This document shows, piece after piece, positions 15,937 to 20,096 of a stretch of DNA of 64,000 nucleotides; within the stretch, counting starts at the first letter, position 1; every line of letters begins with the position of its first letter. Where the stretch lies: the IMG/VR virus record IMGVR_UViG_3300045988_129289, one strand, 5' to 3'. The DNA comes from a virus. Under the pieces are notes generated by a model. That model worked only from the letters and a program-made list of their open reading frames with translations, had not been told where the DNA came from and ran no database searches. A program made the position numbers and the translations under genes.

Positions 15937-16284
15937 ATGAAGAAAATCTTATGTGCTTTGCTACTTGTACTCATAAGTACAAGTGTGTTCTCCCAGAAAA
16001 TAGTAAGAGCAAAAGGATGTTATGATTCTAATAATACCCCCTATATAAAAACAAAAGTATTAAATAATACATGGAAAGATATAGTTTGTATAGTATTCAC
16101 AATTGAATACGATTTCCCTTCTAAGTATGATACTAATCGTTACAAGGAGGCTGTAGTAAAAACCTATATAGAATCTGGCACATCCAAAATAATTAATTAT
16201 TATCCATTACCGAATTACTATAGACCTTTAAGGCAAACCTTAAGAAGATTAATATTCTCTGATGGAAGTTATAAAAATTTTTAA
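15937..16284 (+). CDS. small secreted protein (signal peptide)
   Basis: ORF track 115 aa, MKKILCALLLVLISTSVFSQ. Confidence 0.5.
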   Translation: MKKILCALLLVLISTSVFSQKIVRAKGCYDSNNTPYIKTKVLNNTWKDIVCIVFTIEYDFPSKYDTNRYKEAVVKTYIESGTSKIINYYPLPNYYRPLRQTLRRLIFSDGSYKNF

Positions 16285-18043
16285 TAATCATGTAAAAAGT
16301 ATGGAATTTCAAAAGAAGGTAAATTCACTTCTCGACATTAAACCCGCCGAGAATCAGATCGTAAAGCAAGCACTGAAAGTGTCTTCTGAAACTGAGTCGG
16401 GCAATGGAGCAAAGAAGTATTCCACAACTGGGAATGATTTTGTTGATAACTTTGCTGCTGCTTCATATTTCAAAGAGCCTCGCTCTTATGAGGAGGTAGC
16501 AAAGGACATGCAAACTCTATGGGATTCAAATCCTACTCTCTGTGTAAAACTTGCGCTCTATTTCAGACTCATTACACGTAAGTCTAAAATTGTTACTAAA
16601 GACAAAAGTGAAGAACTAGAAGTTCAGCGCGGACAGGGCTTGAAGAATGAAGGTATTATGAGAATGCTGTGGTTGGCAATCAATCAACCTGCAACATTTA
16701 AAGTAAATCTTCCTCTTTTCATTGCAGCAGGCTCATGGAAGGATGTCATCCAAATGCTCTCTTTAGACTTACAATATCACGGTTGGAAAGAGAGAAAGTT
16801 AGATTGGAATTTCTTATATCTGACTTTGTCAGCAGGTCTTAACAATCCTGATACAACTCACCTGGTGCGTAAATATCTGCCAACTATTAGAACCAATAAA
16901 AATTGTACAACGCTTGAGTCTCAAGCAGACACTCTTATAGGTAGATGGTTAGCTAGAAAATTCTCTCCTAAGTTGGAGAAGGAATCAGCTTATAAGGCTT
17001 ATCGAAAGATTAAGTCTGAAGGTGTTGCTCATGAATGGCAACAACTTATTTCTCAGCAGCTGTATAACTCACTTAACTTTGACCACATTGCAGGTAGAGC
17101 GTTAGCTCTCTTGGTTGGTTCTAACTTCTTGGAAAACCACAATCTTACTAAGAAGTATATTGATTGGATTTCCTCTAAGCCTGTAGCTAAGTTCACAGGA
17201 TATGTATTTGAGCTGTTTGCTCCTTTCGATGGAAACTATCGACACATAGAGGATTACAAGGAGAAGACAATCAATGCGCAATTTGCACAACTTGTAAAGA
17301 CAGGCAAAGAGAACGTAGATGCTAAGTCGTCACTACTTGTAGTACGAGATACTTCATGCTCAATGGAATCAACCGCCAGAGGATGCAAGGTGTCTTCATT
17401 CTGCATTGCTAAATCTATGGCATTATATTTCTCTGAGTTCTTAGAGGGATGCTTCGCCGGCACATTTGCAGAGTTCTCTGATGGTTGCAAACTCCATAAA
17501 TGGGCTGGAGCAACTCCAGTTGATAAGTACATCAATGATCATTGTGAGGCCTACGGAAGTACTAATTTCCAATCTGTAATAGATCTCTTTATAAAGTTAA
17601 AATCAGAAGGAGTTGAGGAAAAGGATTTTCCAAGTGGAATCCTTTGCGTAAGTGATGGAGAGTTTAATAGATGTGGTACTAACAAATCCACAAATTTCCA
17701 ACTTGCAATTAGGAGACTTCGTGAGGCTGGATTTAGTGAGAAATATGTTAATTCCTTTAAGATTATCCTTTGGGATATTCCTAATGGATGGTATGGCAAT
17801 GATAACAAGGTAAAGTTTGAAGACTTTGCAAATGCTCCTAATTTCTTCTATATGTCTGGCTATGACCCAAGTGCCGTGGCATTTATTTTAGGAGGAAATA
17901 GACCTGAACTTAAGGCTCCTAAGAATGCTGAAGAGTTATTCTTAACAGCAATGGATCAGGAGTTACTTAACAGAGTAAGAATCGTGAAGCTTAGTGTAAC
18001 TAAGCGTAAACGTAAAAAGCATACAGTTCGTACTGGTTCGTGA
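16262..18043 (+). CDS. vWA-domain protein (MIDAS DxSxS); candidate Ro60/Rsr (TROVE+vWA)-like RNA-binding protein
   Basis: 593 aa; VVRDTSCSM ... AEFSDG ... GSTNF ... ILCVSDGEFN spacing typical of a vWA MIDAS in the C-terminal third; ~360-aa N-terminal region; basic C-terminal tail. Confidence 0.5.
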   Translation: MEVIKIFNNHVKSMEFQKKVNSLLDIKPAENQIVKQALKVSSETESGNGAKKYSTTGNDFVDNFAAASYFKEPRSYEEVAKDMQTLWDSNPTLCVKLALYFRLITRKSKIVTKDKSEELEVQRGQGLKNEGIMRMLWLAINQPATFKVNLPLFIAAGSWKDVIQMLSLDLQYHGWKERKLDWNFLYLTLSAGLNNPDTTHLVRKYLPTIRTNKNCTTLESQADTLIGRWLARKFSPKLEKESAYKAYRKIKSEGVAHEWQQLISQQLYNSLNFDHIAGRALALLVGSNFLENHNLTKKYIDWISSKPVAKFTGYVFELFAPFDGNYRHIEDYKEKTINAQFAQLVKTGKENVDAKSSLLVVRDTSCSMESTARGCKVSSFCIAKSMALYFSEFLEGCFAGTFAEFSDGCKLHKWAGATPVDKYINDHCEAYGSTNFQSVIDLFIKLKSEGVEEKDFPSGILCVSDGEFNRCGTNKSTNFQLAIRRLREAGFSEKYVNSFKIILWDIPNGWYGNDNKVKFEDFANAPNFFYMSGYDPSAVAFILGGNRPELKAPKNAEELFLTAMDQELLNRVRIVKLSVTKRKRKKHTVRTGS

Positions 18044-18076
18044 GAATAGGTACGTAACTCTTTTCACCAAAAAGTA

Positions 18077-18104
18077 GGAGGGCTCAACTGACTGGGAGCC
18101 CTCC
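18077..18104 (+). terminator. stable hairpin GGAGGGCTC/GAGCCCTCC after vWA gene (terminator or processing site)
   Basis: 9-bp GC-rich inverted repeat, no T-run; immediately 5' of tRNA-Thr. Confidence 0.35.
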
Positions 18105-18110
18105 GAAAAT

Positions 18111-18183
18111 GCCCTCTTAACTTTAATGGTAGAGTGCCTGTCTTGTAAACAGGAAGTTGTCGGTTCGAGTCCGGCAGAGGGCT
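18111..18183 (+). tRNA. tRNA-Thr (anticodon UGU)
   Basis: acceptor GCCCTCT/AGAGGGC, anticodon stem CCTGT/ACAGG loop CTTGTAA, T arm GTCGG-TTCGAGT-CCGGC. Confidence 0.85.
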
Positions 18184-18206
18184 CTAACATTTTAAAAGGT
18201 ATTAAT

Positions 18207-18398
18207 ATGGAAAAGCAGGTAAATTACAAAGGTCCAGGTATTCTTGGACTATTGGGTGTTGCCTTCGTAGTATTAAAGCTAGTTGGCGTAATTGATTGGT
18301 CTTGGTGGTTGGTTACTCTCCCATTCTATGGACCGATAATCTTGTTAATCATTACTCTTATCATTGTAGGTTTAATTGTATGCCTAAACACAAAGTAG
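18207..18398 (+). CDS. small two-TM membrane protein (64 aa)
   Basis: ATG 18207 (MEKQVNYKGPGILGLLGVAFVVLKL...), contained in ORF-track entry 18126-18398. Confidence 0.4.
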   Translation: MEKQVNYKGPGILGLLGVAFVVLKLVGVIDWSWWLVTLPFYGPIILLIITLIIVGLIVCLNTK

Positions 18399-18650
18399 GT
18401 GAAATAAACGGCAATGAGGTTGTTTACATTTCTGAGAAGGATGTGATTTTTTGTAAGAATACTGCTGTTAAATTCCCTATAATAGAGCGTATCATTAGAA
18501 ATAGGGAAGACAAGGGGGAAATTCCAGAAAAGAATCTTACAATCACTAAGGACAATGGAATTGTCCATCTCGGATGTTTAACAACTACTATGGAAAACTG
18601 CCTAAATATTAGGCGCAGAATTATTAAATTAAAAAAAAAATTAAAACCAG

Positions 18651-20096
18651 ATGAATCAAGTTACAAGAAAAAGCAAGAGTTCTACTCTTGAGCAGAAGGT
18701 AAACAACTATGAGGAGGCTATGAAAGGTAAGTTCATAGAGGTAATGCAGTTACCAGATACAACTTACGCTGATTGCCTTGACTACATTGAGAGCGAGATT
18801 GCCCAATCTAAGAAGATGGCAAAAATCAACTATCGCATTCAGTGTTTCCGCAACGATGGTATCTATCAGCTCAATCAGGCTATCTCTCAGGTGTTTGGAT
18901 CTGTTGTTTCTAAGGAAAGTGGCAGTCCATCAGGTGAGAAAAGTGTTCAAACTGTAGACATTACTCTTGCTGACGGAACTAGAGTTAAGGCTCCTTACGG
19001 AGATATTCAGCTCGATGGTCTTGGAGAGGATTCTTCAATTAACATTAATTATCATTCTGATTCACATGAGCTGATAATTACTGGAAGACTTCAGTTCCGT
19101 TTTTCATCTTTAATGGATGACATTATCGAGCAGACTAAAACGAATTTGAAGACTAATTCGATTTATAAGGGTCAGGCTCTGGAGATTTCTAACATTAACA
19201 ATCCAGAAATTCTCGACTTACGTAACATTGACGACCAGTTAATGGTTATTAGTAAGGAAACTGAGTACGCCCTTCGTCCAATCAATGCTCGCATTCTCAA
19301 TCCAGAAAAGTGTATTGAGAAAGGTATTCCGTTGAAGTTTGGAGCATTGTTAGAAGGAGGCTATGGAACTGGTAAAACTCTTCTTGCCTTCAAACTTGCT
19401 CGTGAAGCTGTCAAGAACAATTGGATGTTCATTTATCTGAAGGACCCAAAACTCTTGGCAGAATCTCTTCGCATGTCTAAGATCATCGATCAGTCTGGAC
19501 ATGGCGTCGTAATCTTTGTTGAGGATATCGATCAGGTAACACGAGGTAATCGTGATTCTGCTATGCAGGACATCCTTAACACATTAGATGGTGGTGATAC
19601 TAAGGATATGAATGTCATTACCCTTTTCACTACTAACCATATTGAACTCATTGAACCTACCTTCTTAAGAGGTAAGCGAGTTGGCACTATCATCTCTATG
19701 GGTACTCTGGATGCTGCTACAGCAGAAGAGTTTATTCGTAAATCTTTCGAGATTGGTTGTTATCAGATTGAGGACGACCTTACAGATGTTTGTAAGTTCA
19801 TCGAAGAGAACAACATCGCTCCTGCATTTATGGCAGAAATTATCGAGAAGGTTAAATCTATGATGGTACTCACTGATGAGTGTGTTGTAAAGGCAGAGTA
19901 TATTCTTAACTCTGTTAAGTCTTATCTGCATCAGGTTAAGCTTTCTCGGAAGAAGGATATGTCTCAAACTCCTGAGAAGAGACTTGTTGAGGCACTCAAG
20001 GAATGCCTAGATGTAGACAACAAGCGTACTAAACAGTTCATTGCGATGGCTGAAAATTACTTCGACGATAGCTTGAATAACTACAACGTGCAGTAA
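18651..20096 (+). CDS. AAA+ ATPase, classic clade (Walker A/B + second region of homology), with 230-aa N-terminal domain
   Basis: GGYGTGKTLLA, VVIFVEDID, LFTTNHIELIEPTFLRGKRVG. Confidence 0.7.
   Translation: MNQVTRKSKSSTLEQKVNNYEEAMKGKFIEVMQLPDTTYADCLDYIESEIAQSKKMAKINYRIQCFRNDGIYQLNQAISQVFGSVVSKESGSPSGEKSVQTVDITLADGTRVKAPYGDIQLDGLGEDSSININYHSDSHELIITGRLQFRFSSLMDDIIEQTKTNLKTNSIYKGQALEISNINNPEILDLRNIDDQLMVISKETEYALRPINARILNPEKCIEKGIPLKFGALLEGGYGTGKTLLAFKLAREAVKNNWMFIYLKDPKLLAESLRMSKIIDQSGHGVVIFVEDIDQVTRGNRDSAMQDILNTLDGGDTKDMNVITLFTTNHIELIEPTFLRGKRVGTIISMGTLDAATAEEFIRKSFEIGCYQIEDDLTDVCKFIEENNIAPAFMAEIIEKVKSMMVLTDECVVKAEYILNSVKSYLHQVKLSRKKDMSQTPEKRLVEALKECLDVDNKRTKQFIAMAENYFDDSLNNYNVQ

What the first reader, a model, noticed from the sequence alone, without database searches (positions are those of the whole stretch)
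16262..20096. vWA (possibly Ro60/Rsr-like) protein plus classic AAA+ ATPase embedded among tRNAs and tRNA-like RNAs
The 593-aa protein has a C-terminal vWA with MIDAS DTSCS, followed by AEFSDG, GSTNF and VSDGEF at vWA-typical spacing. It is preceded by ~360 aa, an architecture reminiscent of TROVE+vWA Ro60/Rsr proteins. Bacterial and phage Rsr genes are characteristically adjacent to Y-RNA genes that contain tRNA-like modules. Here the gene is flanked by tRNA-Leu, a GC hairpin and tRNA-Thr. Truncated tRNA-like minihelices sit at 14909 and 20170, the latter right after the AAA+ ATPase. The ATPase is of the classic SRH-containing clade rather than MoxR.
Basis: inference. Interest (0 to 1): 0.65.

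Follow-up and report, generated by a model that had tools for sequence, protein, structure and literature searches.

The report
Divergent phage Ro60 with Y-like RNAs
The 593-aa protein is a highly diverged phage version of the ring-shaped RNA-binding protein Ro60, and related phages carry next to it arrays of small RNAs resembling Ro60's known partner (Y) RNAs that match no RNA-database family above threshold; the neighbouring AAA+ ATPase is only a lineage-specific neighbour.

Summary
ORF 16262-18043 has a complete C-terminal vWA/MIDAS. ORF 18651-20096 is a classic-clade AAA+ ATPase. Both lie inside a phage tRNA array that also holds tRNA-like fragments.

The main new result concerns RNA. In 71 of 77 related phage loci the gene is accompanied by structured RNA units, often in tandem. 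Each unit is CUGAUAAG, a covarying 7-bp stem, ACAGCAA, a loop, the stem's 3' strand, CUGAUAAG. Some loops hold a permuted tRNA-like module that Rfam YrlA hits below threshold. Unit density peaks 0-500 nt downstream of the gene. A model built from these units finds seven copies in the window, all on the + strand within the tRNA region.

The AAA+ gene accompanies the Ro60-like gene only in the closest clade, and its family occurs in isolate phage groups not prominent among those carrying the Ro60-like gene. It is not a conserved partner.

Verdict: a new variant of the Ro60/Y RNA system. Function is inferred, not shown.

The parts
16262..18043 (+). Ro60-like protein. The probable true start is M15 at nt 16304. 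Residues about 30-350 form the TROVE-like helical-repeat ring; residues about 357-547 form the vWA domain with a complete MIDAS (D363, S365, S367, T434, D465).
18651..20096 (+). Classic-clade AAA+ ATPase with an N-terminal domain of about 200 aa of unknown function. Walker A is G236-T243. Walker B reads VVIFV-E291-D292, so the usual DE is swapped to ED. Sensor-1 is N329 and the arginine fingers are R340 and R343. A lineage-specific neighbour, not a conserved partner.
   Evidence: PF00004 at 1.3e-14 and phrog_10440 at 1.6e-56. The best PDB relatives are p97/Cdc48 D2. Present within 10 kb of the Ro60-like gene in only the closest clade. Full-length homologues occur in N4-like, PhiW-14 and Gordonia phages.
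10105..10206 (+). Y-like RNA unit: AAG-AUGACG...ACAGCAA...CGUCAU-CUGAUAA.
   Evidence: Model R1 gives 21.6 bits, E 0.014. The regex scan finds it independently. Fold shown.
10241..10295 (+). Y-like RNA unit
   Evidence: R1 gives 21.4 bits, E 0.016. Regex scan.
10329..10398 (+). Y-like RNA unit
   Evidence: R1 gives 24.9 bits, E 0.0023.
20110..20163 (+). Candidate Y-like unit directly after the AAA+ stop codon. It was found by the motif-plus-stem scan only.
   Evidence: Regex scan. Not among the R1 hits at E<=10.
20170..20214 (+). tRNA-like minihelix: acceptor-like stem, D-like hairpin and T arm, with no anticodon arm. It lies between two Y-like units.
   Evidence: Read from the sequence. MFE fold. 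Conserved only in the closest relatives L011-L014.
20248..20324 (+). Best-scoring Y-like RNA unit in the window. It abuts the 5' end of tRNA-Pro (20324-20413).
   Evidence: R1 gives 27 bits, E 7e-4, over the full model. Regex scan.
21137..21196 (+). Y-like RNA unit
   Evidence: R1 gives 20.1 bits, E 0.032. Regex scan.
23025..23093 (+). Y-like RNA unit whose apical hairpin has the CUUUUAA loop common in the family.
   Evidence: R1 gives 20.3 bits, E 0.03. Fold.
23121..23179 (+). Y-like RNA unit directly 5' of tRNA-Cys (23186-23257).
   Evidence: R1 gives 23.9 bits, E 0.0039.
14874..14947 (+). Conserved orphan module: a long hairpin (14874-14899), a variable-arm-like hairpin (14911-14923), a T arm (14926-14942) and TACAC. 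In sister lineages it lies just upstream of the Ro60-like start codon (T arm 44-53 nt away).
   Evidence: Alignment A5. Positions in L016, L019 and L020. All pairs kept, one compensatory pair.
15836..15921 (+). tRNA-Leu(tag) upstream of the gene.
   Evidence: ARAGORN. Rfam 52.1 bits.
18077..18104 (+). 9-bp GC hairpin between the Ro60-like stop codon and tRNA-Thr.
   Evidence: Read. Conserved in L011, L013 and L014.
18111..18183 (+). tRNA-Thr(tgt).
   Evidence: Rfam tRNA 61.7 bits. Missed by ARAGORN.

Best explanation
ORF 16304/16262-18043 encodes a strongly diverged Ro60/Rsr-type protein: a closed helical-repeat (TROVE-like) ring fused to a vWA domain with an intact metal site.

Its partners are most likely small structured RNAs of a Y-like class that matches no Rfam family at its gathering score. 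Each unit has these parts, in order:
- a 7-8 bp stem formed by its own 5' and 3' ends; the stem sequence varies freely but stays complementary and is closed by conserved A-U and G-C pairs;
- a conserved ACAGCAA just inside the 5' strand;
- an A-rich internal loop;
- an apical module that is either a small hairpin or a tRNA-like domain, in many relatives in the permuted order T arm, closed acceptor-like hairpin, D arm, as in bacterial YrlA;
- a conserved CUGAUAAG flank.

In most related phages these units form tandem arrays right after the gene. In this window they are scattered through the tRNA array, often directly 5' of a tRNA. RNase P cleavage of that tRNA would then define the unit's 3' end (inferred).

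By analogy with bacterial Rsr/Y RNA/PNPase and with the Thermus phage phiLo Ro60, which binds Y-like RNAs and attenuates host PNPase (PMC12135203), the complex would bind 3' ends of structured or misfolded RNAs in the ring. Through its RNA modules it would recruit or blunt host 3'-5' exoribonucleases or tRNA-recognising enzymes. The expected benefit is protection or quality control of the phage's own tRNA transcripts. This functional step is entirely inferred.

The AAA+ ATPase next door is an independent gene that entered this clade's tRNA region. It is not part of the system.

What is shown: the fold, the MIDAS conservation, the RNA units with covarying stems, and their linkage to the gene. 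What is inferred: physical binding, processing and biological role.
For: Fold:
- AlphaFold model from a 90-sequence alignment has pLDDT 92.8 and pTM 0.91.
- The Foldseek top 8 are all Ro60, over 560-590 columns.
- The family profile's best PDB sequence hits are human and Xenopus Ro60, E 2.3e-4 and 7.8e-4.
- 8 of 90 members hit Pfam vWA_Ro60.

RNA units:
- Units are visible in the raw sequence of relatives.
- In 27 aligned short units the stem is 92% paired, against 25-43% when the partner columns are slid. There are 64 double-sided changes.
- In an unfiltered check, 56 of 120 motif-defined units have the stem, against 1 of 120 in a shifted control.
- RNAalifold on 11 long units recovers the basal stem and the T arm with covariation.
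- Rfam YrlA hits the tRNA-like core of long units at 37.2 bits (E 1.3e-4), 31.6 and 26.2 bits, all below its gathering score.

Linkage to the gene:
- Model R1 gives 145 hits at E<=0.01 in 81 loci, all on the gene's strand.
- Hit density is 82 per kb in the first 500 nt after the stop codon, against 1-3.5 per kb beyond 4 kb. 71 of 77 loci have at least one hit.
- No protein family co-occurs with the gene in more than 19 of 91 loci.

Window:
- Seven R1 hits at E<0.05, all on the + strand and all between 10.1 and 23.2 kb.
- An independent motif-plus-stem scan finds 6 on +, 0 on -, with 0.06 expected.

Context in distant phage families:
- The homologue sits beside the tRNA array in Felixounavirus Alf5 and Bacillus phage Izhevsk.
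- In Listeria phage WIL-1 it sits between the tRNA array and HD, RtcB, NADAR and RNA-ligase genes.
Against: - Pfam TROVE matches none of 90 family members. The sequence link to Ro60 is confined to the vWA part. The N-terminal homology therefore rests on a predicted structure.
- Rfam Y_RNA and YrlA find nothing in the window at E<=1.
- The window's units score modestly (20-27 bits). They are not adjacent to the gene: the nearest is about 2.1 kb downstream, beyond the AAA+ gene.
- The conserved motifs ACAGCAA and CUGAUAAG differ from the Ro-binding helix known in animal Y RNAs.
- The units used to build the model were chosen partly by stem complementarity, which inflates the pairing figures.
- Many loci are related by descent, so counts of loci are not independent events.
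- Model R1 finds no units in the Felixounavirus, Bacillus, Listeria and Acinetobacter phage loci.
- There are no expression or binding data.
Confidence: 0.7

Rival explanations
1. The vWA protein and the AAA+ ATPase form a two-component chaperone or remodelling pair, as in MoxR-vWA, NorQ-NorD or Rea1/Midasin. The MIDAS would dock a substrate and the ATPase would remodel it. The RNA context would be incidental.
Against: The AAA+ gene is absent within 10 kb in about 70 of 80 related loci. These include loci whose Ro60-like protein is 75-82% identical, such as L009, L016, L019 and L020. The AAA+ family occurs full-length in N4-like, PhiW-14 and Gordonia phages, whereas the isolate groups that dominate the Ro60-like hits are Felixounavirus, Listeria and Bacillus phages; the two record lists were not cross-checked directly. 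The ATPase is not MoxR-type. The protein matches Ro60 over its full length, not only the vWA domain.
Confidence: 0.07
2. The protein has a Ro60-like fold, but the CUGAUAAG/ACAGCAA units are not its ligands. They would be processing or punctuation elements of tRNA-region transcripts, such as nuclease sites or spacers, or decoys for tRNA-targeting host defences. They would lie near the gene only because both live in the same early, tRNA-rich transcription unit.
For: In the window and its clade the units sit between tRNAs and often directly 5' of one: 20248-20324 before tRNA-Pro, 23121-23179 before tRNA-Cys, 42322-42428 before tRNA-Trp. CUGAUAAG is A/U-rich and could be a nuclease site (inference). 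No binding data exist.
Against: Arrays sit next to the gene in loci where ARAGORN finds no tRNA within 10 kb, such as L027, L029, L051, L052, L085 and L087. Unit density peaks sharply at the gene's 3' end. The Ro60-like gene is the only protein-coding neighbour that is conserved. The long units have the YrlA-type permuted tRNA-like module typical of Ro60 partners.
Confidence: 0.15
3. The two minihelices the reader flagged (14909-14947 and 20170-20214) are decayed remnants of tRNA genes with no function of their own.
For: Both lack parts of a tRNA and score below every Rfam tRNA or Y RNA threshold. The 20170 element is found only in the closest relatives. tRNA arrays in phages turn over quickly: tRNA content differs between the relatives L006, L008 and L009.
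Against: The 14909 module is nearly invariant across lineages whose Ro60-like proteins are only 73-82% identical, while its flanks diverge. It keeps its small hairpin through one compensatory and two wobble changes. In L016, L019 and L020 it lies directly upstream of the Ro60-like start codon.
Confidence: 0.3

Closest known systems
Ro60/Rsr with Y RNAs: animal Ro60, Deinococcus Rsr-Yrn1-PNPase, Salmonella Rsr-YrlA/YrlB
   Same: The domain order and overall fold are the same: a helical-repeat ring followed by a vWA domain with a MIDAS. The gene is linked to small RNAs whose 5' and 3' ends form a stem and whose apical module can be a permuted tRNA-like domain (T arm, closed acceptor-like hairpin, D arm), as described for YrlA in PMC4201824.
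   Different: Identity to solved Ro60 proteins is only 11-13%. Pfam TROVE is not matched. The RNA carries different conserved motifs (ACAGCAA, CUGAUAAG) and is not detected by Rfam Y_RNA or YrlA at their gathering scores. The RNAs occur as tandem arrays of up to about five units, or are scattered among tRNA genes.
Thermus phage phiLo Ro60 with Yrl1/Yrl2 (PMC12135203; PDB 9l5y, 9kop)
   Different: phiLo Ro60 is annotated as a TROVE-domain protein. Its Yrl RNAs were defined by a CGAA motif. No tRNA array or tandem unit array is described for it.
MoxR-vWA, NorQ-NorD and Rea1/Midasin AAA+-MIDAS pairs
   Different: The ATPase is classic-clade, not MoxR or dynein-like. The adjacency is confined to one clade. 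The protein's N-terminal two thirds form a Ro60 ring.
Pfam DUF2828 (PF11443) + DUF7788 (PF25043); PHROG 850 'RNA-binding protein'
   Same: The window protein and 82 of 90 relatives match these models. This is the family it belongs to by sequence.
   Different: These entries give no fold, partner RNA or mechanism. This work links them to Ro60 and to a linked RNA class.

Membership tests
Ro60/Rsr (TROVE + vWA) proteins | Closed ring of helical (HEAT-like) repeats (TROVE domain) followed by a vWA domain, seen as a full-length structural match. | tested here: met
Ro60/Rsr (TROVE + vWA) proteins | Sequence match to the Pfam TROVE domain (PF05731). | tested here: not met
   There is no TROVE hit for the window protein at E<=1. 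None of 90 family members hit it at E<=0.01. The N-terminus matches only DUF2828.
Ro60/Rsr (TROVE + vWA) proteins | Ro60-type vWA domain with a MIDAS motif. | tested here: met
   DxSxS, T and D are conserved. The family profile's best PDB sequence hits are human and Xenopus Ro60 at the MIDAS region, E 2.3e-4 and 7.8e-4. 8 of 90 members hit Pfam vWA_Ro60.
Ro60/Rsr (TROVE + vWA) proteins | Binds Y RNA on the outer surface and single-stranded RNA ends in the central cavity. | not testable with these tools
   This needs binding assays or a complex structure.
Y RNAs / YrlA (Rfam RF00019, RF02553) | Encoded next to the Ro60 gene. | tested here: met
   Across the family, hit density peaks 0-500 nt after the stop codon and 71 of 77 loci have at least one unit. 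In the window the nearest units are about 2.1 kb downstream (20110-20324).
Y RNAs / YrlA (Rfam RF00019, RF02553) | Stem formed by the RNA's 5' and 3' ends, closing a large internal loop with an apical module. | tested here: met
   The basal stem covaries. The A-rich loop and apical hairpin are visible in alignment A6.
Y RNAs / YrlA (Rfam RF00019, RF02553) | Permuted tRNA-like domain: T arm, closed acceptor-like hairpin, D arm. | tested here: inconclusive
   It is present in long units of relatives, with YrlA hits of 26-37 bits against a gathering score of 69. It was not found in the window, which has no YrlA hit at E<=1. The window has only unpermuted minihelices.
Y RNAs / YrlA (Rfam RF00019, RF02553) | Reaches the Rfam gathering score. 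| tested here: not met
   No Y_RNA or YrlA match reached the gathering score in the window or in any locus searched.
MoxR-type AAA+ / vWA chaperone pairs | The ATPase belongs to the MoxR clade (Pfam AAA_3 or AAA_5) and is co-conserved with the vWA gene. | tested here: not met
   The ATPase matches PF00004 and the Cdc48, PAN and FtsH families, with no MoxR models. It is adjacent to the vWA gene in only 12 of 91 sources, the window among them.
Classic AAA clade (PF00004) | Walker A, Walker B, sensor-1 and a second region of homology with arginine fingers. | tested here: met
   PF00004 matches at 1.3e-14. The sequence shows GGYGTGKT, TTN329 and FLR340-GK-R343. Walker B reads ED instead of DE, and no canonical aromatic pore loop is evident (read from the translation).

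The most novel reading that the evidence does not exclude
A large, previously unrecognised branch of Ro60 proteins (DUF2828/DUF7788) assembles with a new class of arrayed, tRNA-derived Y-like RNAs. The branch is abundant in gut and environmental phages and is also present in model phages such as FelixO1-like and Listeria A511/P100-like viruses. The resulting RNA-protein complex would act as a phage counter-measure at the level of host RNA decay or tRNA-targeting immunity. 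It could, for example, sequester PNPase or other 3'-5' exonucleases, or present tRNA-like decoys, so that the phage's own tRNA arrays survive. The units would be released from tRNA-array transcripts by RNase P.
Probability: 0.25. Interest if true: 0.85.

Novelty: new variant of a known kind. Interest (0 to 1): 0.68.

Why it matters
Ro60/Y RNA complexes have been studied for decades in autoimmunity and bacterial stress. Their role in phages is just emerging, with one biochemical study (PMC12135203).

This finding makes three things possible:
- It assigns a fold and a testable RNA partner to a widespread family of unknown function. The family has at least 2,028 homologues among the 8,000 candidates scored and 1,225 clusters at 50% identity.
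- It defines an RNA class that no Rfam 15 family reaches at its gathering score.
- It ties phage tRNA arrays to an RNA-surveillance protein.

Cultured hosts exist for testing. Leptolyngbya phage Lbo-JY46 carries the units directly after the gene. FelixO1-like and Listeria phages carry the protein.

Tried and rejected
- Direct sequence search of the protein against PDB found nothing (E>0.6). Only profiles of the family reached Ro60.
- A first AlphaFold run with 37 close homologues gave a poor N-terminal model (pLDDT 63). Its Ro60 hits were only suggestive. It was replaced by the 90-sequence run.
- Rfam searches for Y_RNA or YrlA in the window were negative.
- I tried to read the 14909 element as a class II tRNA or as part of a YrlA-type permuted unit (T arm, then the abiF-like hairpin at 14958-14995, then a D arm). 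There is no D arm and no 5' acceptor partner, so I dropped this reading.
- I tested whether the Acinetobacter phage ME3 AAA ATPase, encoded beside its DUF2828 gene, is related to the window's AAA+. BLASTP found no significant similarity (E 0.29).
- I looked for RtcB, RNA ligase and CCA-adding enzyme homologues. None turned up in the window or in the 80 metagenomic loci with the queries used.
- The search for related loci with the very diverse alignment A4 failed because it has no conserved stretch. Alignment A2 was used instead.
- The Burroughs and Aravind 2016 RNA-repair paper could not be retrieved.
- Literature searches for DUF2828 returned only incidental plant and tardigrade mentions.

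Full report
**Observation**

The window is a low-GC (36%) stretch of a large phage genome. It carries 21 ARAGORN tRNAs plus a tRNA-Thr that ARAGORN misses, a group I intron, an amidoligase cluster, NAMPT and replication genes. ORF 16262-18043 (593 aa) and ORF 18651-20096 (481 aa) are present as described.

D363, S365 and S367 are invariant, and T434 and D465 are at least 90% conserved, over 108 homologues down to about 20% identity.

The gene is flanked by:
- tRNA-Leu at 15836-15921;
- a 9-bp GC hairpin at 18077-18104;
- tRNA-Thr at 18111-18183.

The two tRNA-like minihelices exist, at 14909-14947 and 20170-20214, and no tool calls them tRNA. The likely true start codon is M15 (nt 16304).

**What the protein is**

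By sequence it is Pfam DUF7788 (vWA-like; above cut-off) plus a weak DUF2828 match, and PHROG 850 'RNA-binding protein'. It finds nothing in PDB on its own. Profiles of the family do better:
- A 40-sequence profile finds Ro60 as its only PDB hits, weakly.
- A 108-sequence profile hits human and Xenopus Ro60 at E 2.3e-4 and 7.8e-4. The match covers only the start of the vWA domain.

Pfam TROVE matches none of 90 members, and 8 of 90 touch vWA_Ro60.

The decisive test was structural. With 37 close homologues AlphaFold gave pLDDT 63. With 90 diverse representatives from the exhaustive HMMER search it gave pLDDT 92.8 and pTM 0.91.
- Foldseek's top eight PDB hits are all Ro60/Rsr: Xenopus, human, Thermus phage phiLo and Deinococcus. 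They align over 560-590 columns, and every later hit covers only the vWA domain.

The N-terminal two thirds therefore adopt the Ro60 ring. The protein is a very divergent Ro60 (11-13% identity to solved ones). This conclusion rests on a predicted structure.

**Genomic context across phages**

Homologues are abundant: at least 2,028 at E<=1e-3 among the 8,000 candidates scored, and 1,225 clusters at 50% identity.

Among isolates, distant homologues (about 21-25% identity) are placed as follows:
- Felixounavirus Alf5: directly upstream of the tRNA array.
- Bacillus phage Izhevsk: directly downstream of a 20-tRNA array.
- Listeria phage WIL-1: after the tRNA array and before HD, RtcB, NADAR and RNA-ligase genes.
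- Acinetobacter phage ME3: near a CCA-adding enzyme.

I fetched 80 metagenomic viral loci whose protein is 41-98% identical. Roughly 38 have at least five tRNAs within 10 kb, usually with the nearest within 1 kb. About 20 have none.

**The AAA+ ATPase**

It is classic-clade. It matches PF00004, and its nearest solved relatives are p97/Cdc48 D2, Rix7 and proteasomal ATPases. The sequence shows Walker A GGYGTGKT, sensor-1 N329 and arginines R340 and R343. There are no MoxR models among the hits. Walker B reads E291-D292 rather than DE, and I see no canonical pore loop (read from the sequence).

It is not a conserved partner of the Ro60-like gene:
- tblastn and phmmer find it within 10 kb of the Ro60-like gene only in the closest clade, 12 of 91 sources counting the window.
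- It is absent from loci whose Ro60-like protein is 75-82% identical (L009, L016, L019, L020).
- Its full-length family (phrog_10440) occurs in N4-like phages, Delftia phage PhiW-14 and Gordonia phages. The isolate groups that dominate the Ro60-like hits are Felixounavirus, Listeria and Bacillus phages. I did not cross-check the two record lists directly.
- More generally, no protein family co-occurs with the Ro60-like gene in more than 19 of 91 loci.

**The RNA partner**

Searching for T arms outside called tRNAs showed clusters of 'orphan' T arms beside the gene, including in loci with no tRNA genes. Reading those regions revealed tandem units. Each unit reads:

CUGAUAAG / 7-nt variable strand / ACAGCAA(A) / A-rich loop with an apical module / complementary strand / CUGAUAAG

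The apical module comes in several forms:
- a small hairpin, in units of about 70 nt;
- a T arm stacked on the basal stem, in units of about 100 nt;
- a T arm, closed hairpin and canonical D arm, in units of 120-160 nt.

The third form is the permuted tRNA-like order that defines bacterial YrlA (PMC4201824; bioRxiv 10.1101/312249).

Evidence that the units are structured RNAs:
- In 27 aligned short units the basal stem is 92% paired, against 25-43% when the partner columns are slid, with 64 double-sided changes.
- Those units had been filtered for complementarity, so I ran an unfiltered check. 56 of 120 motif-defined units have the stem, against 1 of 120 in a shifted control.
- RNAalifold extends the stem by the conserved A-U and G-C closing pairs and recovers the T arm in long units with covariation.
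- Rfam YrlA hits the tRNA-like cores at 37.2 bits (E 1.3e-4), 31.6 and 26.2 bits, below its gathering score of 69. No Rfam family reaches its gathering score on these regions.

Evidence that the units are linked to the gene:
- Covariance model R1 finds 145 hits at E<=0.01 in 81 loci, all on the gene's strand.
- Their density is 82 per kb in the first 500 nt after the stop codon, falling to 1-3.5 per kb beyond 4 kb.
- 71 of 77 loci have at least one hit, and 41 have one within 1 kb.
- The cultured Leptolyngbya phage Lbo-JY46 has two R1 hits beginning 74 nt after its gene and spanning a tandem array of three units.

**The window itself**

With filters off, R1 finds seven units at E<0.05. All are on the + strand and inside the tRNA region:
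- 10105-10206
- 10241-10295
- 10329-10398
- 20248-20324 (the best: 27 bits, E 7e-4)
- 21137-21196
- 23025-23093
- 23121-23179

Each shows AAG-stem-NCAGCAA...stem-CUG on inspection.

An independent motif-plus-stem scan finds six on the + strand and none on the - strand, with 0.06 expected. It adds 20110-20163 and 42322-42428.

Several units abut the 5' end of a tRNA (Pro, Cys, Trp). RNase P cleavage of the tRNA would therefore define their 3' ends; this is an inference.

The 14909 module has a conserved long hairpin, a variable-arm-like hairpin and a T arm. It is nearly invariant across lineages and keeps its hairpin through compensatory change. In L016, L019 and L020 it sits immediately upstream of the Ro60-like start codon. 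It may be a further partner or processing element. It could also be a conserved tRNA remnant.

The window has no YrlA-type permuted unit.

**Mechanism**

Shown:
- a Ro60-like fold with an intact MIDAS;
- a class of stem-closed RNAs with covarying stems;
- strong positional linkage of gene and RNAs.

Inferred:
- The protein binds these RNAs, and the conserved 5'-side motif is the likely contact. In the known Ro60-Y RNA structure Ro60 mainly reads the 5' strand (10.1101/312249).
- The complex acts on RNA 3' ends and on host exoribonucleases or tRNA-recognising enzymes, as Rsr/Y RNA/PNPase does and as phiLo Ro60 does when it attenuates PNPase (PMC12135203).
- The biological pay-off is protection or quality control of phage tRNA transcripts, or defence evasion.

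I put about 0.9 on the fold assignment, about 0.65-0.7 on the RNA partnership and about 0.4 on the exoribonuclease-modulation role.

**Novelty**

Phage Ro60 proteins and phage Y-like RNAs are known (PMC4201824, PMC7824862, PMC12135203). PHROG's label 'RNA-binding protein' is at least in line with an RNA-related role. I found no description linking DUF2828/DUF7788 to Ro60, and none of the CUGAUAAG/ACAGCAA arrays. No Rfam 15 family reaches its gathering score on them, and the searchable literature has nothing either. The Burroughs and Aravind 2016 survey could not be checked.

I rate this a new variant of a known kind.

Noticed in passing
window 14958-14995 (+): A hairpin matches the Rfam abiF RNA motif (RF03085) at 50.1 bits, above its gathering score of 37 (E 2.7e-6). 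It lies directly after the 14909 tRNA-like module and is conserved in L011-L013 and L015. The motif is normally found upstream of bacterial abortive-infection abiF genes. A phage-borne copy could be a decoy or antitoxin mimic.
   Followed up: partly
L006 14291-14802; L008 15021-15444: Related phages encode a tmRNA (Rfam 95.3 and 86.4 bits, with ARAGORN tag peptides) in the tRNA region just downstream of the AAA+ gene. The window has only faint tmRNA-like fragments, at 7975-8020 and 21780-21953.
   Followed up: partly
window 4556-4630; 20494-20700: A suppressor tRNA with anticodon CTA reads TAG. A GIY-YIG-like ORF starting at 20494 has in-frame TAG and TGA codons. This is either stop-codon recoding or a decayed homing-endonuclease gene.
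   Followed up: no
window 22095-22346 (+): A group I intron scores 87.3 bits with Rfam. It overlaps a minus-strand 209-aa ORF (22273-22902) rich in Cys motifs, possibly a homing endonuclease.
   Followed up: no
window 6361-6464 (+): A RAGATH-1 hammerhead ribozyme match scores 51.4 bits, just under the gathering score of 56.3 (E 1.1e-5).
   Followed up: no
L004 4006-4557 (Listeria phage WIL-1): A ROOL-like large RNA scores 87 bits (gathering score 99.1, E 4.5e-16). It lies about 1 kb upstream of the phage's DUF2828/Ro60-like gene, between tRNAs. The record annotates this region as many tiny hypothetical ORFs.
   Followed up: no
window 14629-14721 and 14754-14861 (+): Two small paralogous ORFs (30 and 35 aa) share a pattern like M.K..K.A..WY. 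Similar 34-40-aa ORFs lie upstream of the Ro60-like gene in L006, L008 and L009.
   Followed up: no
window about 25100-29900; 43438-44988: A cluster of peptidase_C26/GATase, COOH-NH2 ligase, GATase_6/7 and amidoligase genes is conserved in relatives. A nicotinamide phosphoribosyltransferase (PHROG 448, 6e-178) lies further on. In more distant loci the neighbours of the Ro60-like gene include NAD-salvage genes, a short (PurZ-sized) adenylosuccinate synthetase, and GMP reductase/IMPDH.
   Followed up: partly
window 36826-36916: ARAGORN reports a tRNA of undetermined type with a two-base anticodon (ct). No Rfam tRNA hit was seen there at E<=1.
   Followed up: no
window 18207-18398 (+): A small predicted two-helix membrane protein follows tRNA-Thr. 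It is the protein neighbour most often seen with the Ro60-like gene, but only in 19 of 91 loci.
   Followed up: partly
L053 12926-13051: One Y-like unit encloses an almost complete, unpermuted tRNA-like sequence (D arm, anticodon-like arm, T arm) inside the basal stem. This suggests the units arise from tRNA genes.
   Followed up: no
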